In this document: piece by piece, positions 40,122 to 54,000 of the stretch | How positions within the stretch are numbered: the first letter of the stretch is position 1 | Layout: the number at the start of each line of letters is the position of its first letter | NCBI GenBank assembly: GCA_965113315.1 | Contig: OZ220372.1 | Source of the DNA: Podarcis vaucheri | Lineage: Eukaryota | Reading direction: 5' to 3' (one strand) | DNA: 64,000 bases | Translations under genes and position numbers: made by a program | Notes under the pieces: generated by a model | Database searches by the model: none | What the model was told of the DNA's origin: nothing | Seen by the model: the letters and a program-made list of their open reading frames with translations, nothing else

Positions 40122-43100
40122 CGTAAATGGTTTTGGGGGTGCTTTGCTCAAGGGTGAAAGCAGGGGCTCTTTCCTTTCCTTTTCTTAGTCCTGTTCATAA
40201 ATTTCAGCGCGTCTACACTGAGTAAAACCTAGTTGAATAAAATCCTCTGGCTACCACTACCAAGCTCCCCTCTTCTCAGGTGCACTGCACCCTGGCAAGT
40301 AGGAAGTAGGGAGGTCCTGGGGGTCAATCTCTCTCCCTGCTGTCAAAACCTCTTGCAGAGCTAGCCGCTTTTAGAGCACTGCCTTGCCGTGGCGAAGGGG
40401 CTTGAATAACTCAGAGAAGCTATGAACTATGCTGAGCAGGGCACCCAAGATGGACAGGTCATAGTGGAGAGTTTTGACCAAACGTGATCCACCTGGAGGA
40501 GGAACCGGCAAGCCACTCCAGTATCCCTGCCAAGAAAACTCCATGGACAAAGACAACAGGCATATAAAAGTTATGACGCTGGAAGATGAGCCCCTCAGAC
40601 TGAAGTAGGAAGCTGCAGCCGCCCCCCTGCATGATGAAGGGCCTGTTTTGACCCCAGAGTCCAGCAGTGAGGGAGCCAGAGCAGATTCCTGGGTCTGAGT
40701 CTGAAGCTGGTGATCAGGGGACCACCAAACTGGAAACTGGCTGGGAGGAGCTGACTGAAGCAGATGCCACAGTACCAGGATTCTTAAAACTAGAGCTAGG
40801 AATCTCTTGGATAATTTCCTCTAGATGTGAGGAAGCAAATCCTTGCGCCCCTGTAGAGTTGCCACAAGTCAGAGTAGATTCATCTGAGCTAAATGAAGCC
40901 ATGGCCTGACCTGATAGAAGGCAGCTTCCTCTGTTCCTGTATAAACGATACTCTGAACAGGGTGGGTGTTTAGAAACTGATGGACAGTTGCAGTGAATGG
41001 CGAATCTAGGTATAAGGTTCTCTTACAGTTATAAGGACGCATGTGGAGCTATATGATTGGACAGTGGGTGGTATTCAACATCAGTCCTACTCAGGGAATG
41101 TCCATTGAAGTTAATGGACCTGAATAACTTTGGTTCATTAATTTCAGTGGGTCTCTTCTGAGTAGGACACAGTTGAATACTAACCCTCCCCCCCACCATG
41201 TTTAATGGATTTATGCAAGCAAAACCATGATACTCTTGGTTTTATATATAGCAAAATGGATAACAGTTACAAAGTTAATAGGAATTGTCCTGAATCCAAA
41301 GGAAAGCTGGTGGAAAGGCCGAGAATAGAATCCAGAATGGCAAGTCTCTTGGTCCTGTGCACTACCTTTTCAAGTGGCTCTCACATTTTATTGATTAAAA
41401 TGTTTAATATAAAGTAGTGGCGTCACCAAAGTCTAGAATGGCTTGAGATGTGCTGTCCCAACACAACATTGCTCAGAACACTGCTTGGAATGAGTTTCAT
41501 TTATTTCTTGGGCGGCCCCAAAACTGACCCTCGCCCATCTTTCTTATACTACTTCTCATACATTGATGCATGGCTTTGATTATCATTACCTGATGATGAC
41601 GATGATGCTGTCATAGATGTTGTAAGGATTGCGAAGATAATCAAAGAGGCCAAAGGCAGCAAGTTTCAAGATCATCTCTAGGGCAAACATGCTGGTAAAC
41701 ACAACATTGCAGATTTCCAAAATATTAGTCAGCTCTTCTGGCTGCAGGAGAAGTAAATAAAATAAAATAAAATCGGAAGCCATTTAGGAAACTTTCTATC
41801 ACATACTGTTCTGCCTAGTGTACAATAAATGGGGCCTCTGGGTAGAGAAGAGACTCTTGCAACTTTTCCATTTATTTTTTTAAATTGCATGTTAAATGTC
41901 TGTCTGTAAAACCACCATCTCCCAGTGATGTCCCAATATTTCATGATGTTTCACTTGTTATCCCCGAGTTTTTACCTTAACTCCTTTATGTTCTGTTTTG
42001 GTTCTGTCTCCAGGAGTGAAGGCTGTTGCTGTTTTTTAAATTGTAGCTGTTTTAGGGTGAATAACAGCTTCACCCTATGAAATGAAGAAATGAGGTTGCA
42101 GGAAGCTTAATGTGCAAATTTGGTGTTATAAGAAGACTGAGGATTACTGTGATGTTCCATAGAAATTTACAATATACCATGTATATTGTACTGAATGCTG
42201 GTTCCTTATGAATAAGGATACGTGATACAGATTATGGACCAGCATACCAACTGGGAACTTGAAATTGTTTTGAAGATCTTCAGGGCATTTGCACTGAGGC
42301 CGTTATATGCATGTTGAAAAACCTTATCTGTAAAATTTGCATCACAGTACTGAGAAAGGTGGAAGTTATTTCTGCAAGTTTCATGTTCTTATTTTAATGT
42401 ATGTATATTTAGGACTTAACAGTACTAGTGCCCTCTTCTGCCTCCTATAGAATTACATTACTATGTTACTAATGTTGATCTTAGACTATAAAAATTTAAA
42501 GTGAATTCACTGCTGGATTGCCAAACATAGCTCTATTATGGACTTGGTTGTATTCAAACAACAGAAGCACACAATTTCATTTTTGTGGTCTTTCACTGAC
42601 TATTTCTACAAATAATTTTGTTTTGCATCAAACTTTGTTGTTCTTTATGATCGTTGGATATGTATTTTTTCATCTGCTTAATTGGAACAAACTATTTCAA
42701 TCCTTTGCTTTTCTTTTTTTCTTATTATTTTTTAAAAACCATCAAGAAGGTATGCTTATCACTTTCACCATCCATGGCATGTGTTGGAGCACTAGCACCA
42801 GACTATAATAGTATACTAGAGCTGCTTTCTAAAATGAATTAGCACATTTCTTTTAAAAAACGTTTTGTATTAAACCCTAAACGGCCTCGGTCCAGTATAC
42901 CTGAAGGAGCGTCTCCACCCCCATCATTCTGCCCGGACACTGAGGTCCAGCGCCGAGGGCCTTCTGGCGGTTCCCTCCCTGCGAGAAGCAAAGTTACAGG
43001 GAACCAGGCAGAGGGCCCTCTCAGTAGTGGCGCCCGCCCTGTGGAACGCCCTCCCATCAGATGTCAAAGGAAAAAACAACTACCAGACTTTTAGAATACA

Positions 43101-43487
43101 TCTGAAGGCAGCCCTGTTTAGGGAAGCTTTTAATATCTGAAGGACTATTGTATTTTAATATTTTGTTGGAAGCCACCCAGAGTGGCTGGGGAAACCCAGC
43201 CAAATGGACGGGGTATAAATATATTATTACTATTACTATTATTATTAACATTTCCCTTAATGCAAAAGTCAATCAATCAATTTTTGGAAACAAAAAATAA
43301 CACTCACCCCAGTTATTTTGTGACTTCCTCTCTGTTTGCAATAATGCATATTTTCGAACAAAACTTTCCTCTATCCTTCCTTTCTTCTTTTCTCGGTGTT
43401 TTCAGCTTCCCACCCCCAGTCCTTTTTATACCCCTATACGTCTAGTAGCAGCTTGCTAGGCCTTGTTCTGCTAATCTTTTCTCATAA

Positions 43488-43532
<45 letters not shown>

Positions 43533-45004
43533 CTGCTGTCTCATTAATTACCCAATGGAATATGTAGAAATCTTGCAATGTATTTTATCGAAGAGGAGCT
43601 TGTTATGCTTGGCGCTCAAGCACACACTTAGGCTATAACACAATTCCATAAATAGAGTACACAGCCAATCATGTCACTTCTATCTTGTATATGTTGCATA
43701 CAGAACAAGCGTGTCAAGAAAACTGGTGGCATGATGCTATTACCCCCTGGGATGTTTGTGGTGAGAAAAAGGCTTGAATCAAATGATTCAGCCTTGGATG
43801 CATGCGGTATCAGGTCATTTGTGGTCTTCTTGGAACTTGCAAATAACATCCACTCACTAAGCCAGAAAAATACAGTTCTGCTTAGTTCATATGCGCGTGT
43901 GTGCGCGCGCCACAAATAAGTGATTGAATGAATAGACTTCAACCACCTGCCCTCCGATGCTTTCTCCTGAGTTCCCATTCCAGTTCCTTAGCGCTTTGTC
44001 CCACATAATCATCTGTTCACTCGCACCAAGTGGTTTTGACAACTGCTGTCCAAAAAAATCCCCTCCCTCCTGTATTCTGAAAAAGCAAAACCCTTCTCTC
44101 TCCACAGCCTACTAATTCATCCCCACACTTTCTCGGGATCAGCGACTTCACGCTAATTTCAACACAATGAGAAGGGGGAAACAGCAACAACTGCACACCT
44201 TTCCCATGCCAGATGATTCTTTATTAAAGCTGCCAGTTTCCCTAAGTGAAAAAGTAAAGACAGAATGGGAGAAACAAGGCTTCTATTTCCACCCATAATT
44301 ATGTTTGACTAATAATGCAAGTGCTAAAAGGCAAAAGATGGAATGTAAAAACTAACAGAGTGATCTTATGCATCTTCACACAGAAGGAAGAGTAAGTGTT
44401 TGTAGGATAAGACTATGCACACTGTAGTAAGCCCCAGGGAAGCAGAATTTACTTTGGAGTCCATCTGCATAGGATTAACTTCTAAGGGTCTTTCCTCATA
44501 ACTTAAAAACCTGTATTGTAGGGTGAAGAAAAGACAGACGGTAATTTCAGAAAGAAGTGGAAATCCCTCCCCTTATTTATCTCTACCATATAACACTGGT
44601 CTTGAGATCTGCATTGGTTCCCAGTACGTTTCCAAGCACAATTCAAAGTGTTGGTGCTGACCTTTAAAGCCCTAAACGGCTGCAGTCCTGTATACCTGAA
44701 GGAGCATCTCCACCCCGATTGTTCAGCCCGGACACTGAGAGGGCCTTCTGGCAGTTCCCTCACTGCGAAAAGTGAGGTAACAGGGAACCAGGTAGAGGGC
44801 CTTCTTGGTAGTGGAGCCTGTGCTGTGGAACTCCTTCCCATCAGATGTCAAGAGAAATTAGCAACTATCCTCCTTTTAAAAGGCATCTGAAGGCAGCCCT
44901 GTTTAGGGAAGTTTTTAATGTTCAATGCTGTATTGTTTTTAATATTCGATTGGGAGCCACCCAGAGTAGCTGGGGAAACTCTGCCAGATGGGCGGGGTAT
45001 AAAT

Positions 45005-45051
<47 letters not shown>

Positions 45052-48000
45052 TACTTTTCATTTCCTGAGCTGAAGAATCAGGCAGAACAAGAACATTTTG
45101 GATCATTCAATAAGCCTCTGTGTAAAACTCCTGCAAGGTGGTGTGGAGGATAGCAGCTTTTTGCAATATGTGTTCTGAGGCGGGTTGAAAATAGGATGCT
45201 GTCCTAAAATTTGTATGTTTATCCTGGGCATGAAGGAACGCCAACTGTAATTTCAACCAATCACTCTCCAAGGCAGATATCACATTAGAATATATTTTGC
45301 ATTTTACTGCCACTACCCACTTCTGAAAATGTTGAGTTGGGGGGAGGAGACGCTAGAGGAAAATACGAGTGAGGACTGAACAGGACAGAAACTTGTTTTG
45401 TAAAAATAGACATAACCTGCCTCACTGTGAACGCTTTAATTTCTAAATCGCATTGTGGTGTGTTTTACATTTTTCCTTGCCTTTCTGAGAAGAGGTCTGC
45501 GGGGCTTGCATTTTCCTCCCCCTTCATCTAATATAGATGAGAGATGTGAAACCTGAGGCACAGAATTGTGCCCTGAATATGACTAGCATATTTCATTCTG
45601 ATCTCAGTGTTCAAATGGAGTATCTCACAAACAAATAAAATGCTGAATGAGTGGGAGAGTGAAACTAAAGACCTCACCTGTTTCACAAAAAGTAGTGGTT
45701 TTTTACATGGCAGGGCAGTGGTGGAGAGAGGTGGGGAGAAGCTTTCCTAATATCCACCCACTTCATTCATTCCTGCACATGGTACTAGAGTTGCACATGG
45801 TGGAATTCCTGCATACAGTCACTCAATAAACACACCCCAGTGTTCACGCAATGACACTAAAAATGTCAAGGATATCACATGGAACCATTCCGACAAGTCT
45901 CTCAAATAGAAATTGCAATGGAGGTGCTGCATGGGGAACTTATTGCAAGCACAAAATATAGCACACAAACCAAGTGTGGGAAATGCAGTCTCCACCCCAC
46001 ATAAGGGGTATCGAGGGGAGAAGTGTGGCTCGCATAAGACAAAAATGTAACATTAACAAGTGCATATTTACTTTGCTGGAAATGTATTCTGCAGAAAGGT
46101 TATAGGGGGAAACTTCTATTTGTAGTATAATGCTCATTTCCATGAAGCTCCCCACCACAGAGACGAGCGCACATCCGAGTGGATTAAAGATACGCCTATT
46201 TTTGGCAAGGCATTTTGAGATACCAGTCCTGTCCTATTTAGATGCGTGCTTGTCTGTATGGGGGCAAGCACAACCGTGATGAAAATAAGCTCAGAACTGC
46301 ACAAGCAAATCTGCCCAAAGAGTCTTTGGCAGAAACTAGAAAAAGCAAAAATACCAATTCCAGCCCAAACTGAACAGATTATGTCAGTCATAATGAGAAA
46401 TGTAATGTAGCATCATGATATAATGGTGAATTGTCTTCCTTGCTCCTGCTGACGTGTTCTCTCTCTCACGCCTTCTGTGCCTTCGTGAGGAACTGATGTT
46501 TTAAAAGTCATCCTTGTCTGTCTCTTACCGAAAAGGTCACCTGTTCCCGCTCACTCTCCTTTCCTCCCTGACATCTGTTTCACTAGTCAAGTGCACATCT
46601 GCTAATCTTTTTCTAATGGGCCATCACTCACCCCAGGGAATGGTTCTACCTAGGGAGTTGGGTAAGAAAAGAAGAGCGTAGGAGAGGGAGACAGAAGAGG
46701 AACGGCTGGGGAAAGGCAAAACTTCTAACAATTCCACATTCCTGAGTGGAAAGGAAAATACAAAACAGAACACAGAGAGCCAGAGACACAATGAAAAAGC
46801 AAAGCAAAGAGGAAGCCAGAAGCAAATTATTAGGATGGGAAAATAATGAAGGGAGGGGAGGCTGAAGACATGCAATACAACTAAAGAACCCTGGCATACA
46901 AAACAAACAACGATGAGGATGATGTATGAAGCCCAAACTAGATGCCTTGTTGGGGGTGTTTAACAAAGTTGCAGGAGTGGGAGGAATGATGGTCAGCACA
47001 CACTTGGCTGTTTCACACCAGCTGTTGGACCAACCTATGGTTTCTATGAGGGAAGGGAACAGGCGGTGGTGAGGGAGATTCAGTTTTCCTGCTCAACCAT
47101 AGACCTCACTTACGGTGCAATCAGGGGCTAGCTCAACTGAGTTCAGTAGAATTGACTCACTTTGGACCTTGAGCCAGCTGTCAGCCTAACCAATCCCACA
47201 AGGGTGCTGTGAGATTAGAAGCGGGCAGGAGGCAAACCATGTACAATGGCAGGCATAAAATGTAAGCAATATTCAGAGGCATACTTAGCTGTTATGAAGT
47301 TAATTCATTGATAGACCTATGCTCCATAAATTTGTCCTAAAGAAAGCGGCCATCACTATTCCCAGTGACAAGGAGGATGACAAACCTCTTATGTGTTGTA
47401 TAAAGAAGTACTTTCTTTTGGCTATTGTGATGGGGCAGGTTGATCTAACACAGGAGTGGGGAACCTGCGGTTCTGCAGAAGTTGTTAGACTCTGACTCCC
47501 ATCAACCACAGCAAGCATGACCAATGGTCAGGGATGATGGGAGTTGGAGTCCAACAGCATATGGAAGGCCACAAGTTCCTTACATCTGCCTAAAAAGAGA
47601 GTAAAGTCATATCTACACTACACTAGCTCATATTTATTATTACTCCATACTTTCCAGGGCTGAGTCACGGCACTGATTTTAAAAATGTTCTGAAGTTAAG
47701 CTGTGGCAATACTGACTCAAATTAAACCCTTCCCAGAGGTCTTAGCACATACTGTTGTTATGTTCTGATGGTTATTCTATAAATAGTCCTAAACAGTACA
47801 TTAACTCAAGCTTATGTAAAATTTAAATGAAGTAACTCACGCCTAAATCTCCCTTTAGCTACATGGCTCTTGGATAACCTCTCCATCATATAAGTCATGT
47901 GTTTATAACATTTGAATATTAGTAGATGATTATACTGATTGTTCTTTGCCCTTACTCGTTGCCAATCAAAGTGATAACTACTCAGCTTCTTTAATTTTTC

Positions 48001-51000
48001 TTTATGTCAGATCTTTCTTTTTAAAAAATGATTTATGTTTTTATACAGGCCTCCTCTGAGCTGGGCATCATTATTTTTAAGAATGAGGTGGCTACATTAG
48101 TGCTTATTATACAAAGCAGAGGTTCTAATCAACCAGGGCCCTCTTAAAAGGCTATGCCCACTCTGTCTGATTCACAGCCAATTCTGTGCTATGAATATTC
48201 CATAAACAGAAAGCAAGACTGTGGGCAGGTTAGTCAGCAAATGTGGGTTATCATCATACATATTGCAAAAAAAAGGGGGGAGGAGAATGGTATTTTCCAC
48301 ACTCAACTGCTATCCTGTCAAACTTTCACAGAAAAACAATGAAACTAAGGATGGTTGGGATTGCCCTTTGATTATTGTTGTGTATAGTTTAGTTTAGTTT
48401 TGTATTTGTTTTGTTTCAAAAACTAATAAAGCATCTTTAAAAAGAAAAAAGAAACTAAGGATGGAGGAGAAATTTGATTCACATCACATTTAAGGGTCAA
48501 ACTACCTAACTCACAATTTCTGAAACAATATGTGAACCAAAACACAACCATCCTTTGAAATCTGCATTCCTCTGAATTTTGCAATGCAGTTCTCCAGCTA
48601 AGTAATTTATACAAAAATGCATATACTAGGGTAAATTAATGATAAAGTGTGCATAACATAACAATAACATAGTGAAAATAATACACCAAAAATCCATTAC
48701 CAAAAGCTTCTTTGCAAAACTGTGTTTCTGTGTATTCAAACATTTGTATACAGCCCACTTACACAGGGGTTATGTTCTAGGCCCCTGCATGCATAACTGA
48801 AATCACATAAACTGGGGAGCACTATCTAAAAGGCCTCCAGACACCCATTTCCCCCCCTGCTCTCCAGCTCTCTCTCCCACTCTCTCCCCAATCCAGACCA
48901 AAATATCTGTAGTTGAAGCTATGGGGCTGCCTGAAGAATGTGCAAGAAAGTTGCTACTGCTGCTGCTGTGCTACCCCGCATGTCAGCTGTTAGACGGGGA
49001 GGCTGAGTAGCCAAAACAAAGCCTCACTGCACCTCAGGTCTCTTTGGGTCTTCCTCCTCCCTCACTGATGTCCTCTTTGGGCTCTGGGGAGGGTCTCCTT
49101 GTGAGCTACGAGGACTCTCCAGCTCTCTCCCACCATTTCTGGATTTGAAAATAAATTACTTATTTATTTTCCTGGTGTCACACATATATGTGGTTGCACA
49201 TGAGTCAATCATGTGTAAGTGGGAGGGTGCCTGTATTTGGAGAAATGTCCTGATGAATTCTCAGAAGGACTGTTTTGGCGGGGGGAGGGGGCGGAATCTG
49301 CAAACTGATGCAGAAATGTGAGACCTGAATTCAAGATTGGAAAAATGAGAAACTGAGAGAAACCAATAATGACAGATTCATCTATTGTTAAGAAGAAGCT
49401 AGGGGGCTCTTTTTAGTTGTGTGGATGTACAGAAAGATGTTGTATGCATGACCTGGTAGCAGTCTTTCTTATTCTGGATTTAACTTGGCCCCCGCTAAGC
49501 AGTAGGTGCCAAGTCCCCTGACAGGCCTTGGTAAGAGGAAACAGACCCTGTCAGGTTTGTCTCCTGCTGCTCACATCAGGTTGCCTAACTTCTCAAACAT
49601 GAAGATGGCAACTTCCTCCTCAACTTTGACGTCACCCTCATTTTACACCCACTCGGGCAGTATTCCACCTGCCCACATGCACTACCTTCTGCTCTCTCTT
49701 TCACTGCCCACAGAACTGCTCACAGCAAAGCTCCAGCTTCATTGAGGCAGATCACAGGACCTCCACAGTACCATCAGTCTGCAACTACATGGCCAGTTCC
49801 TTCCTCTTCTGACTACACTGAAACACATATTTCACAAGCACCTCAGATCAACCAACATTCCAGAGAGTATGTTACATGGCAATCCTAACTACAACTACTC
49901 AGAAGTCCCATTGAATTCAGTGGGGTTTACTTTCAGGTAAATGGGGCTAGGCTTGTCACCTGTGTCAGGAATGCTGAGCAAGGGCTGGTCATCTCTCACT
50001 ATCTTGATACGATGTGCTGTCCACAAAGCACACCAACATGCATCAACAAATGCAGGTCACCCGAGTTCGGTGAAAAACTGTTGTGCGAAGGCGACCATGC
50101 CTTCTGATGAGCAACTGGACATTCATAATGCAGATTCTTTGCAGTTGTAAACACAGAAATATAATTATTTTCTACAAAGCTATAATGTTGATTTAAAATG
50201 CCACATTATTAACTTTCTACAGACATCAGGGTGCGGCTACTGAGGGAATATTTCATGCGGAGGAACAAAACTAATTTGCATGAATTAATTGCCTGCAATT
50301 AACATAAGTTGCAAATTGTTTTCATGAACTTAGCTGAGGCCAAAACTACAATGTGTTCTCTATGTGATGTGAAACTGTGGCATCAGCCCTTGGGGGAAAA
50401 TGGAAGAAAAATCCTGAGAGATTAAAAATAACACCAATAGATTAGGAAATTGTTTTACTGGCTTCGCAGTTCAGAGTGTAAGCCTGTGGGTAGCATTTGT
50501 TCTTTTAATTCAATTGTTGTGCTGCACCGAGTGCCGAAGCACTTTCCAAATAAGAACAGCTACAGCAATCACTACTCTAATAATTCCTGTACATTGCAAC
50601 CCCTCTTTGGAAACCCCTTAGGTTTTCAATTTTTGAAACAAAATCTTTACAACATCAAGGCCTGAAAATGTCCTGTTACAAACAGAATGACCACTGGAAT
50701 GGTCACAATTCGAACACAAATATCTGAGTTTCCTTGTATGCGCCTTGAAAGCTGGATCCTCTGCCATTCCTACTGCATACATCAATAGCAGCAGGTGGGA
50801 GGGGTACCACTGCACACCTGGCCTCCCATCAGCTGCTTACTGGAAGGGACAAGGTTGGATTGGCTCTGGTGATGCAACTGACCTCCTCGCTGCCTCACCC
50901 TCCCTCCCCAAACCTTAAAGCAGAAACAGCTTCACTGAAAGAAAGCTGGTGTTGCAGCTCCACCCAACAGAGTGAATCACTTTGGCTATACAAGATGCTA

Positions 51001-54000
51001 TACAGAAGACAAGACTGCCACATGACAGCAGTGGTACATGCAGGCTTTGAGCGGCAGGTTGTCAGTACAAACATCTGAGGTCTGGCACAGCTGCCTTTTA
51101 GGTTATAACCCTGCTCAATATTATGTGTAGCTGATTCCTCTGTGACAGTTCAGAGAGCCTCATTTGTGCCCAGACATATGCCTTTTCTATTTTGATCTAT
51201 TCTTTAGCACAGTTTCAGATTGAAAGGAGAGTTCCTGCCCCTGCTGCCCCTTGAGAGGGTTCCTTGAGCTCCATCCGCACAGGGCTCACCGGATTCCCTT
51301 GTACCTCTGTAGAAACGGGCTGTGCTTGTGTGTCTCTTAATTAAGCTGGAAAGACTGGCAAACGGATGGATTTGATTTGAGCGGTGGGTGAAGTGCCTGC
51401 GCTGTCCCCAGAGGCTGTATTAAACTAAACCAAATAGACTAAGGATTCAGTTAGCTAATGAGGAGAGAAATGAGACCGAAAGAGAGGAAGATAGTGGGAG
51501 CGGAGAGTTGGCAAAAACAGGAACACACACACAGGGAGATCAGCTGAATGGAGCATAAATGGAGGAGGACAAGGAAAGGGACAGAAATAAAAGGGAGAAA
51601 AAGGTAGGAAGCTGTGTTGGTTCGTCTAGATCAGTATTGTTAGTAGCAGCGCTTCTCCACGTTTTCAGATAGGGAATCTGTCCTGGCCCTACAAGGAGAT
51701 GCCAGGAATTGAACTTGGAACTTTCCGCATGCAAAGCAGTTGCTCTACCACTGAGCTACAGCCCTTCCCCAAAATAGAGAGCAGGAACTGAAAGGGAGAT
51801 ATAGAACAAGGAAGCAAAAGGAGGTGGAATGCACTTCAGATGGTTACTTCACCTATTAATCCCCCTCCCCATTCATTCATTTAGTGAACACAGACACTTG
51901 TTGCCCGGTGGGCTTACCAGCTATTTCTGCCCCGAAACCACAGTGAGGTAACATCTTTAGTAGGAACCAACCCAAATGTCACAGAGTTGTTCCCAGGACT
52001 GAGAACAAATTGATTAACTGCTTTATTTCATTTTTGTTTAAATGGGGGTATATCTATTATTTCTTCTTGATCCCAGCTGCTCTTGGTACAACCTGTAATC
52101 TGCAAAACACTTACCAGAGGCTAATATGCAATTACTCCATCTTAAAAGACTGTTACAAACTGCAGACTCTGGGGCTTTAGCATCATGAACTTTTTTTTTT
52201 ACTACACTCACCCAACAAATAATTTTCTAAATATCCAGTCTGAAGATGTTTGGAGGAACTCAAAAGCTTTGTGACATATTGGTTTGGCCTAACAAATGTA
52301 GTATTCTAGCATGGCTTTAGCATCTCCCCTGCCCTGCAACGAGTCAACAGAGCTACGTATGTTTTTTATAGGCTACATCTTCCTCAGTCAACCTAGAGCA
52401 AATGTATCCCATTCCATTTGAATATTTGCCAGATTTGTTTGGTCTTCAGACCCTGGCCTCAGATCACAGGACCACTATTGCTACTGCAAAGCCTCCAATT
52501 GGGTCTTCCTTCCATAATTTATTGTGGGGTGGGGAAGATGTGCAAGCCTAGTATAGAGCTGTGCACAAGATATAATCATAGAAGCTCTAAGGGAACATGG
52601 CAGATACAGGTGCCTTGTCCAGGTGCTGCTTGATTATATACGTAGGTCCTTAAATACATGAACCACCTACCAGCTCCTAGAGCCCCCCAAATTCCCTACA
52701 GAAAAAGTAAACTCATTTGAACATTGTTGTGTTGATGCCCCAACAACCACAACATGCTAGATAACAGCCATACTTTTCAAGGTACACAGTATCACCTCAG
52801 ACTGCCAAGTTAATTTATTGTTCACTGCCCACCAGTCTAGCTACCTGTTCATGGTGCTCAATGCCCATGCTGATGGTGTTCACAAGGATGGCGATCATGA
52901 TCCCACGGTTGAAGTATTTGCTCTCCACAATTCCCCTCAGTTTAACCCTGACTTCTTGCCACACGTCACTCCAGAGAGCCAGCTGTCCACCTTCCTCTCC
53001 ATCCTCCTCCTCTTTCTCCAGGTCTGTAGTCCCGGTGCTTTCTTTTCTTCCATCTCCCTCCTCTTCACTGGGTCCTCTTCCCTCTTCCTGATCTGAATCG
53101 GCACTCTCAAGCACAGAGAGTCTACGGGCTGCTTCCCGCTGGGCCTTGTGACATCTTGGGCAGTTGCTAGGGTCAGACGTCAAAGTCATGGCAATCGGTT
53201 GGCCAAGGCCTTGTGGCACATAATCAACACAGTTGTGCTTTCGGCAACGTCCTGGGGAATAATAAATACAGGGATCAAATTTAAGGGGAAAGCAGTGCTA
53301 CATTTCCGCATCTGTTAGGCAAAACAGGTCCTAAACTGTATTGCTAGCCATTTTAAGTGTGAAGGAAATTAAGCCCTGGAACCGTCTGCCAAGGGAAGTG
53401 TTAGGCTCATCATCACCAAGAGACTTTAATGGAGATTGTTTGTCTCTCAGAGACATGCTCTACTTCAGCTACAATAGATTAGACTCAATTGTGTTCAGCT
53501 CTGTAGTAGGGGTAGGATAATTCTCCAGACTGCAGGAATCACTAAATAAGAGGCCATGGCGTGTATTATCTCAGAGGTGAAAAAAAGAAAAAATATCAAA
53601 GCTTCTTCTCTCCCTAAAATCTATGATTCCCTAGTTATCACTTAAATAAATTGTTTCACTTGCACAACATATTGCTGAAAAGGTCCTTGCCTGTGTTCAT
53701 CAGAACTGCTGAGTTTTTACTTAATGTCAGTGTTACCTGTTATATCTGTAGAAAGAACAACAACATGAAGAGAAAGTATAAAACAGTCCATTGTTGCAAA
53801 CTTGCTCAAAAAGTTATGCGGATTTCAAGCTAGAAGCACAGACTTGTTCGCCCCTGTTCCTCACCACATGAAAATTTAGCAGAAACAGGCAAGAATGCAC
53901 AACTTCATGCTCCTACGGGTCATGCCACACTTTTTAAAAAATATGTAAAGCTAAGATACTTTATACCTGAATATGCAAAGTGTGAAGGCAACCAGTTCAT

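What the first reader, a model, noticed from the sequence alone, without database searches (positions are those of the whole stretch)
46626..46874. Hidden tandem microexon cassette (12 nt + 18 nt) in the Cav3.3 domain II S1-S2 extracellular loop
Seen: mid-way through the 11-kb phase-0 intron between ...EHHEQ and PEELT..., in sequence with no recognisable repeat, the minus strand reads TGCATG (46869-46874), a 118-nt AG-free pyrimidine tract with a CTAAT branch motif (~46830), cag|GAATGTGGAATT|gttaga, an 80-nt pyrimidine-rich mini-intron, then tag|GTAGAACCATTCCCTGGG|gtgagt. Both exons are multiples of 3, stop-free and in the right phase. They would give EHHEQ-ECGI-VEPFPG-PEELT, or either insert alone. 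Knowledge: neural microexons of 3-27 nt are usually frame-preserving; TGCATG is the RBFOX site; I know of no described Cav3.3 variant at this junction. Inference: a regulated splice switch remodelling the VSD-II outer loop and adding a free extracellular Cys, which could alter redox, metal or gating-modifier toxin sensitivity. Caveats: the 12-nt donor is weak and there is no SRRM4-type UGC within 20 nt of either acceptor.
Basis: partly seen in the sequence, partly recalled or inferred. Interest (0 to 1): 0.85.

Follow-up and report, generated by a model that had tools for sequence, protein, structure and literature searches.

The report
Candidate Cav3.3 microexons, probably unused
An intron of a lizard T-type calcium-channel gene (CACNA1I) holds a long pyrimidine-rich stretch with splice signals around a 12-base and an 18-base piece, but neither piece appears in any of 317 related protein records, so they are likely unused cryptic sites; the 18-base one remains a possible, untested microexon.

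Summary
Use as exons is not shown. Of 317 fetched Cav3.3 proteins spanning the junction, 314 join EHH(E/Q)Q directly to PEELT and none holds ECGI or VEPFPG. The RNA test was inconclusive, and no other vertebrate's intron DNA could be obtained. The 12-nt exon's donor scores below all 44 real donors. TGCATG occurs at background density and lies upstream, the repressive side. The 18-nt exon has usable sites and the most pyrimidine-rich upstream 200 nt of 205 look-alikes in 2.1 Mb, yet look-alikes also arise elsewhere. My estimates: cryptic or unused 0.62; real 18-nt microexon 0.15; 110-nt poison exon 0.08; recursive-splicing exon 0.08; tandem cassette as proposed 0.05. A separate element at 51490-51430 matches a bird-like intron read-through and may be the better lead. 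The scan has no earlier finding on this.

The parts
52845..53252 (-). Upstream constitutive CACNA1I exon (end of the I-II linker and IIS1, ending EHHEQ); donor CAG|GTAGCT. The 5' edge is approximate.
   Evidence: 100% match to a Podarcis muralis Cav3.3 record; donor scores 8.1 bits; RNA-type contigs of two runs stop aligning exactly at 52845
46869..46874 (-). TGCATG (RBFOX-type motif), upstream of both candidates
   Evidence: Present; 1 of 6 in the intron, at background density
46744..46861 (-). 118-nt AG-free, 81% pyrimidine tract with a branch-like TCCTAAT (46835-46829) and three TGC at 46824, 46806 and 46801
   Evidence: longer than 43 of 45 real acceptor AG-free zones
46730..46741 (-). Candidate 12-nt exon (ECGI): good acceptor, very weak donor; likely not an exon
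   Evidence: Acceptor 9.6 bits (mid-range of real sites); donor -0.6 bits, below all 44 real donors; 0 of 317 proteins
46650..46729 (-). 80-nt pyrimidine-rich spacer, which is the 3' splice-site region of the 18-nt candidate; AG-free for 54 nt (87% C/T); no TGC within 60 nt of the AG
46632..46649 (-). Candidate 18-nt exon (VEPFPG), starts with GT, donor GGG|GTGAGT; the best in-frame candidate of the intron; use not shown
   Evidence: Acceptor 7.6 and donor 5.9 bits; rank 1 of 205 for upstream pyrimidine content; 0 of 317 proteins; RNA inconclusive
46632..46741 (-). Alternative reading: one 110-nt exon (upper acceptor with the GTGAGT donor), frameshifting and with an in-frame stop
   Evidence: Computed; use not shown
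41591..41741 (-). Downstream constitutive exon (PEELT..., IIS2-S3)
   Evidence: Matches human Cav3.3 chain 7wli_A residues 665-714 with one difference; acceptor 12.0 bits

Best explanation
This is a single-copy, pyrimidine-rich stretch of the CACNA1I intron with two acceptor-like AGs and one good donor, which the spliceosome likely skips, so the mature message likely joins the two flanking exons directly and the domain II S1-S2 loop stays short. Shown: the sites, their scores and the direct join in protein records. Inferred: the strong constitutive sites (donor 8.1, acceptor 12.0 bits) pair across the intron; the 12-nt piece cannot be defined because it has no usable donor; the 18-nt piece lacks the usual helpers (a UGC near the acceptor, a downstream RBFOX site) and is at most a low-level cryptic exon.
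For: 314 of 317 junction-spanning Cav3.3 proteins join directly, and the 3 inserts are unrelated. ECGI, VEPFP and EPFPG occur in 0 of 375 proteins held. These include RefSeq isoform sets of Podarcis raffonei, Lacerta agilis, Anolis, Pogona, geckos and snakes. The same records did capture a 27-nt alternative acceptor elsewhere in the gene (21 of 257). The 12-nt donor is below all 44 real donors. No GCATG lies within 200 nt downstream and no TGC within 20 nt of the 18-nt acceptor; 74-79% of SRRM3/4 microexons have a UGC between branch point and AG (10.1101/2024.09.17.613571). Look-alikes occur at 0.9-16 in-frame sites per Mb strand, depending on thresholds. The two paralogous introns share no sequence with it. 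CACNA1I is absent from the human lists of 310 novel and 145 brain-specific micro-exons, in which CACNA1B does appear (PMC4317164 supplements).
Against: The 18-nt candidate has the most pyrimidine-rich upstream 200 nt (75.5%) of 205 look-alikes, and the runner-up is a real acceptor of the same gene. Extended pyrimidine tracts and distant branch points are a hallmark of neural microexons in human and chick, and a UGC is not strictly required (PMC12871342). The protein records are gene models, many not independent, and annotators miss isolated microexons. A poison or recursive exon would leave no protein trace. My splice model is a 44/45-site weight matrix with a few mis-picked sites, not MaxEntScan.
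Confidence: 0.62

Rival explanations
1. The 18-nt piece alone is a real, unannotated neuronal microexon that would add VEPFPG to the domain II S1-S2 loop in some neurons; the long tract upstream is its regulatory region (possible PTBP-type repression outside neurons).
For: In frame and stop-free; acceptor 7.6 and donor 5.9 bits, both within the range of real sites; the only in-frame candidate with a good donor in the 11-kb intron; rank 1 of 205 for pyrimidine context; fits the extended-tract profile of neural microexons.
Against: 0 of 317 proteins; no near UGC and no downstream GCATG; donor in the lowest tenth of real donors by my matrix; no conservation evidence obtained.
Confidence: 0.15
2. 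The upper acceptor (46741) pairs with the GTGAGT donor to give a 110-nt poison exon that would send the message to nonsense-mediated decay, with the 18-nt form as an alternative acceptor.
For: The strongest acceptor context (9.6 bits, 118-nt AG-free zone, distant branch point) has no donor of its own but shares one 110 nt away; that exon frameshifts and contains a stop. It would explain the empty protein record.
Against: Depth was 0 in the bin 46622-47015 in all 4 runs, but gene depth was only about 2-3 in three runs and 0 in the fourth, so this is weak. The exon body would be mostly pyrimidine tract. Poison exons are typically highly conserved (abstract of PMC11357089), and conservation could not be shown here.
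Confidence: 0.08
3. The 18-nt piece is a recursive-splicing exon: once joined to the upstream exon, that exon's last bases CAG and the piece's first bases GTAGAA would form a new donor that removes it again, leaving the ordinary message.
For: The piece starts with GT; the rebuilt donor scores 6.8 bits, above its own donor (5.9) and above the 10th percentile of real donors (6.3). This is the definition used in PMC6224609.
Against: The same 9-mer is in the training set, which inflates its score. 17 of 205 look-alikes also start with GT. The intron is only 11 kb, whereas vertebrate cryptic recursive sites are mostly in far longer introns (recalled).
Confidence: 0.08
4. One reading: a tandem 12 + 18 nt cassette under RBFOX control that would add ECGI and VEPFPG, including a free extracellular cysteine.
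For: Both pieces are in frame and stop-free, and the 12-nt acceptor is good.
Against: The 12-nt donor is -0.6 bits, below all 44 real donors, and donor strength is the feature that tracks microexon inclusion best. TGCATG is at background density and upstream, where RBFOX typically represses. 0 of 375 proteins hold ECGI.
Confidence: 0.05

Closest known systems
Neural (SRRM3/4-type) microexons
   Same: Length 12 and 18 nt, frame-preserving, extended pyrimidine tract and distant branch point (features from PMC12871342 and 10.1101/2024.09.17.613571, passages).
   Different: No UGC near either AG, no downstream RBFOX motif, an unusable donor for the 12-nt piece, and neither conservation nor neural inclusion is shown.
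Microexons of Cav2 channels (Cav2.2 e24a and e31a; the 6-nt CACNA1A micro-exon)
   Same: Tiny cassette exons in calcium-channel alpha1 genes under neuronal splicing control (Nova2 for e24a and e31a: PMC5633781 passages; 12-nt CACNA1B and 6-nt CACNA1A exons: PMC4317164). Their position in extracellular voltage-sensor loops is recalled.
   Different: Those are demonstrated in RNA, and the CACNA1A one is conserved to Xenopus; they sit in S3-S4 loops (recalled). This candidate lies in IIS1-S2 of Cav3.3 and has no transcript evidence.
Recursive-splicing (RS) exons
   Same: The exon start rebuilds a donor with the preceding exon and has its own downstream donor (PMC6224609 passages; scores).
   Different: No intermediate was detected, and the intron is short for a cryptic RS site (recalled).
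Described Cav3.3 splice variants (exon 9 in the I-II linker, exon 33 in the C-terminus; recalled)
   Same: Same gene.
   Different: Those are intracellular; no variant at this junction was found.

Membership tests
Neural microexon | 3-27 nt, frame-preserving, flanked by AG and GT | tested here: met
   12 and 18 nt, phase 0, stop-free
Neural microexon | Extended pyrimidine tract and distant branch point | tested here: met
   AG-free zones of 118 and 54 nt, 81% and 87% C/T; rank 1 of 205
Neural microexon | Usable 5' splice site (12-nt piece) | tested here: not met
   -0.6 bits, below all 44 real donors
Neural microexon | Usable 5' splice site (18-nt piece) | tested here: met
   5.9 bits, above the weakest real donor (5.1) but in the lowest tenth by my matrix
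Neural microexon | UGC close to the acceptor (usual, not obligatory) | tested here: not met
   Nearest TGC is 69 nt above the 18-nt piece and 60 nt above the 12-nt piece
Neural microexon | RBFOX motif in the downstream flank | tested here: not met
   No TGCATG between 46632 and the next exon; nearest GCATG is 2.4 kb away
Neural microexon | Inclusion in neural mRNA | tested here: inconclusive
   Low coverage, repeat-swamped tables, 103 joints not shown; 0 of 317 proteins
Neural microexon | Exon and flanks conserved across species | not testable with these tools
   No orthologous intron DNA obtainable; no paralogue homology
RS-exon | Rebuilt donor above the 10th percentile of real donors, plus a downstream donor | tested here: met
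   6.8 against 6.3 bits; the score is inflated by training-set overlap
RS-exon | Part-spliced intermediate or lariat evidence | not testable with these tools
   Needs deep total or nascent RNA
Poison exon (110-nt form) | Premature stop upstream of later junctions | tested here: met
   In-frame stop in codon 32
Poison exon (110-nt form) | Inclusion that rises on NMD inhibition; high conservation | not testable with these tools
   No such data reachable

The most novel reading that the evidence does not exclude
This intron hides a reptile neuronal splice switch. The 18-nt exon is included in some neurons and lengthens the domain II S1-S2 loop of Cav3.3, whose length is the same in 314 of 317 protein records from amphibians to mammals. 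It competes with a 110-nt poison form and with its own recursive removal, and a second, bird-lizard-conserved element at 51490-51430 controls the same intron. It would be the first extracellular voltage-sensor splice variant of Cav3.3 that these searches could find.
Probability: 0.15. Interest if true: 0.55.

Novelty: not a real feature. Interest (0 to 1): 0.2.

Why it matters
If unused, it is an ordinary cryptic site and shows how often microexon-like motifs arise in vertebrate introns. If the 18-nt exon is real, it is a new member of a known kind (neural microexons in calcium-channel loops). It would sit at a Cav3.3 position with no described variant and give a simple test of how the domain II outer loop tunes T-type gating. 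The claimed free cysteine rests on the least credible part, the 12-nt exon.

Tried and rejected
Relative genomes: none held. Run search: no RNA holder listed on record. Reads and contigs of 4 of the 24 listed runs were laid on 41500-53300: the tables were dominated by intronic repeats, exon depth was about 0.1-2.5 in three contig runs (31 in one bin that also drew repeat-derived pieces) and 0 in the raw-read run, and 103 joints and 1881 loose ends were not shown; no verdict either way. A short-fragment protein search returned 33 proteins, all single-exon genomic read-throughs and none spanning the junction. Metagenome scans for host DNA found nothing. HMMER search with a 104-residue intronic reading frame across the cassette found 0 hits; this is uninformative, since it needs a spurious ORF in the same frame. 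Paralogous introns: no shared sequence beyond 11-12-nt matches. RNA structure: none above shuffles (z 0.95). Rfam: nothing at the cassette. MicroExonator supplements: no Cacna1i, but also no Cacna1 or Scn2a gene names, so uninformative. Zebrafish microexon supplements: no cacna1i/g/h in the files searched, one file not searched and no positive control. PMC4390143 was not held, and the supplement of PMC12871342 was unreadable; the large microexon catalogues there could bear on the 'not described' claim. A BLOSUM test of the bird-like match at 51470 was not significant (21 of 150 shuffles, 6 of 100 other stretches), while an identity test was. No structure was predicted for an insert-bearing channel.

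Full report
Observation. The host gene is CACNA1I: the upstream exon matches a Podarcis muralis Cav3.3 record at 100%, and the downstream exon matches human Cav3.3 chain 7wli_A 665-714 with one difference. The intron is phase 0 and 11,103 nt long. The 401 nt around the cassette are single-copy in the genome.

Splice-site strength. I built weight matrices from 44 donors and 45 acceptors of this gene and its two paralogues in the same genome. Sites were picked automatically near tblastn edges and a few are probably wrong; MaxEntScan was not available. The 12-nt piece has a mid-range acceptor (9.6 bits) but a donor of -0.6 bits, below every real donor (minimum 5.1). The 18-nt piece scores 7.6 and 5.9, inside the real range but low. 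The flanking constitutive sites score 8.1 and 12.0.

Chance. I scanned 1,064 kb of this genome on both strands (the window, 400 kb beside it, 100 kb at each paralogue and 40 spaced 10-kb stretches). Thresholds fitted to the 18-nt piece pass 7 sites including it, 2 of them multiples of three. Looser thresholds pass 82 (34 multiples of three), and splice sites alone pass 601. Among 205 look-alikes, the 18-nt piece has the most pyrimidine-rich upstream 200 nt (75.5%; median 54%), and the next is a real acceptor of the same gene. This is the best point in its favour. It is weakened by the thresholds being chosen after the fact and by the finding having been picked as an outlier from many windows. 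TGCATG adds nothing: 6 copies lie in this intron against 0.48 per kb background, and none lies downstream of the candidates. RBFOX motifs are enriched downstream of alternative micro-exons (PMC4317164, passages) and typically repress from upstream (PMC5633781, passages).

Proteins. Three searches and three cluster look-ups gave 375 proteins. Of these, 317 span the junction by my pattern and 58 do not (fragments, genomic read-throughs, or a variant junction). Of the 317, 314 join directly and 3 have unrelated inserts of 3, 12 and 20 residues. ECGI, VEPFP and EPFPG occur in none of the 375. Only part of the large clusters could be listed (15 of 47, 93 and 166 members). The records include RefSeq isoform sets of lacertids, other lizards and snakes, and they captured a 27-nt alternative acceptor at 36642-36616 in 21 of 257 proteins. 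That piece is contiguous with an exon and easier to annotate than an isolated microexon, and many records are not independent, so this is moderate evidence against common inclusion and no evidence on poison or recursive forms.

RNA and conservation. Four of 24 listed runs were laid on the intron and both exons. Two contigs stop aligning exactly at the upstream donor (52845), but the letters beyond (31 and 7) were not printed. The test is inconclusive. No orthologous intron DNA could be had. The same intron in the two paralogues is 37 and 33 kb long and shares nothing with the cassette.

Mechanism. Most likely (0.62) the stretch is a cryptic, skipped pseudo-exon region and the loop stays short; the skipping is inferred from site strengths, missing helper motifs and the protein record, not observed. 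Rivals use the same sites differently. The 18-nt piece alone could be a neuronal microexon (0.15): extended tracts are typical and a UGC is usual (74-79%) but not obligatory (PMC12871342 and 10.1101/2024.09.17.613571, passages). The upper acceptor with the good donor would make a 110-nt exon with a stop (0.08). Because the 18-nt piece starts with GT, joining it to the upstream exon would rebuild a donor of 6.8 bits, meeting the definition of a putative RS-exon (0.08; PMC6224609, passages), with the caveat that this 9-mer is in the training set. The tandem cassette with an added cysteine gets 0.05, because donor strength is the feature best tied to microexon inclusion and the 12-nt donor fails. 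These probabilities are my judgement, not computed values.

Literature. Searches for a CACNA1I microexon or a domain II S1-S2 variant (listings and abstract starts) found none. Passages of PMC11953252 concern a human splice-site variant, and passages of PMC12149502 do not treat Cav3.3 splicing. CACNA1I is absent from the 310 novel and 145 brain-specific human micro-exons in the supplements of PMC4317164, where CACNA1B appears. Supplements of PMC7821500 (passages) and PMC12626420 were uninformative. PMC4390143 was not held and the supplement of PMC12871342 could not be read. The known Cav3.3 exon 9 and exon 33 variants and the loop positions of Cav2 microexons are recalled. The scan's own index held nothing relevant.

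A better lead in the same intron. An unnamed Logan protein with a bird-like Cav3.3 exon (P0047) reads through the donor into intron sequence. The end of that read-through matches the lizard intron at 51470-51429 in 11 of 14 residues, on the same strand and behind a long pyrimidine tract in both. An identity test gave 0 of 60 shuffles and 0 of 100 other stretches at that level for four window sizes, but a BLOSUM test on the whole tail was not significant, and the window sizes were chosen after seeing the match. In the lizard this place has an acceptor at 51454 (7.7 bits, 87-nt AG-free zone), a CTAAC motif, further acceptors at 51424, 51414 and 51345, and a strong donor at 51290 (8.8 bits); every exon from these acceptors to that donor carries a stop. 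It may be a conserved poison exon or regulatory element. This rests on one translated sequence and needs a DNA alignment.

Verdict. Interest 0.2.

Noticed in passing
window 51620-51290 (-), core 51490-51430: Long pyrimidine tract, then a stretch matching a bird-like intron read-through (P0047) in 11 of 14 translated residues (identity test 0 of 60 and 0 of 100; BLOSUM test not significant). Acceptors at 51454, 51424, 51414 and 51345 and a strong donor at 51290 would all give stop-containing exons. Single-copy. Possible conserved poison exon or splicing element.
   Followed up: partly
window 36642-36616 (-): 27-nt alternative acceptor extension (VFDFIFPMQ) in the II-III linker, annotated with small changes in 21 of 257 proteins; it starts with GT directly after the AG.
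   Followed up: partly
window 51765-51694 (-): tRNA-like sequence (Rfam RF00005, 47 bits) covered by many repeat contigs; likely the head of a tRNA-derived SINE lying just above the 51.6-kb pyrimidine tract (SINE reading inferred).
   Followed up: no
G000 C36 (L027-L030) and C10 (L043-L046): The intron at the same EHH(E/Q)Q-P junction is unusually long in both Cav3 paralogues (37,060 and 32,904 nt), far longer than its neighbours; no shared sequence found.
   Followed up: partly
window 52844 donor; proteins P0097, P0100, P0108, P0109: Mammal-type read-throughs of this donor begin with ASA, which implies a GC donor in mammals, whereas the lizard has GT.
   Followed up: no
first CACNA1I intron, upstream of the window (window-relative about 253380 and 127900; L020 and L008): The intron edges read ATATCCTTT at the donor and a TTCCTTGAC branch motif with AC at the acceptor: a minor-spliceosome AT-AC intron, known for voltage-gated channel genes (recalled).
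   Followed up: no
L090 minus strand, offset about 2164 from the reverse start: A background hit with very strong sites around an in-frame 15-nt piece (acceptor 16.2, donor 8.8 bits); may be a real small exon of another gene.
   Followed up: no
window 15555-15310 (-) and window-relative 68750 (L002): Two real CACNA1I acceptors have very long AG-free pyrimidine zones (246 and 127 nt).
   Followed up: no
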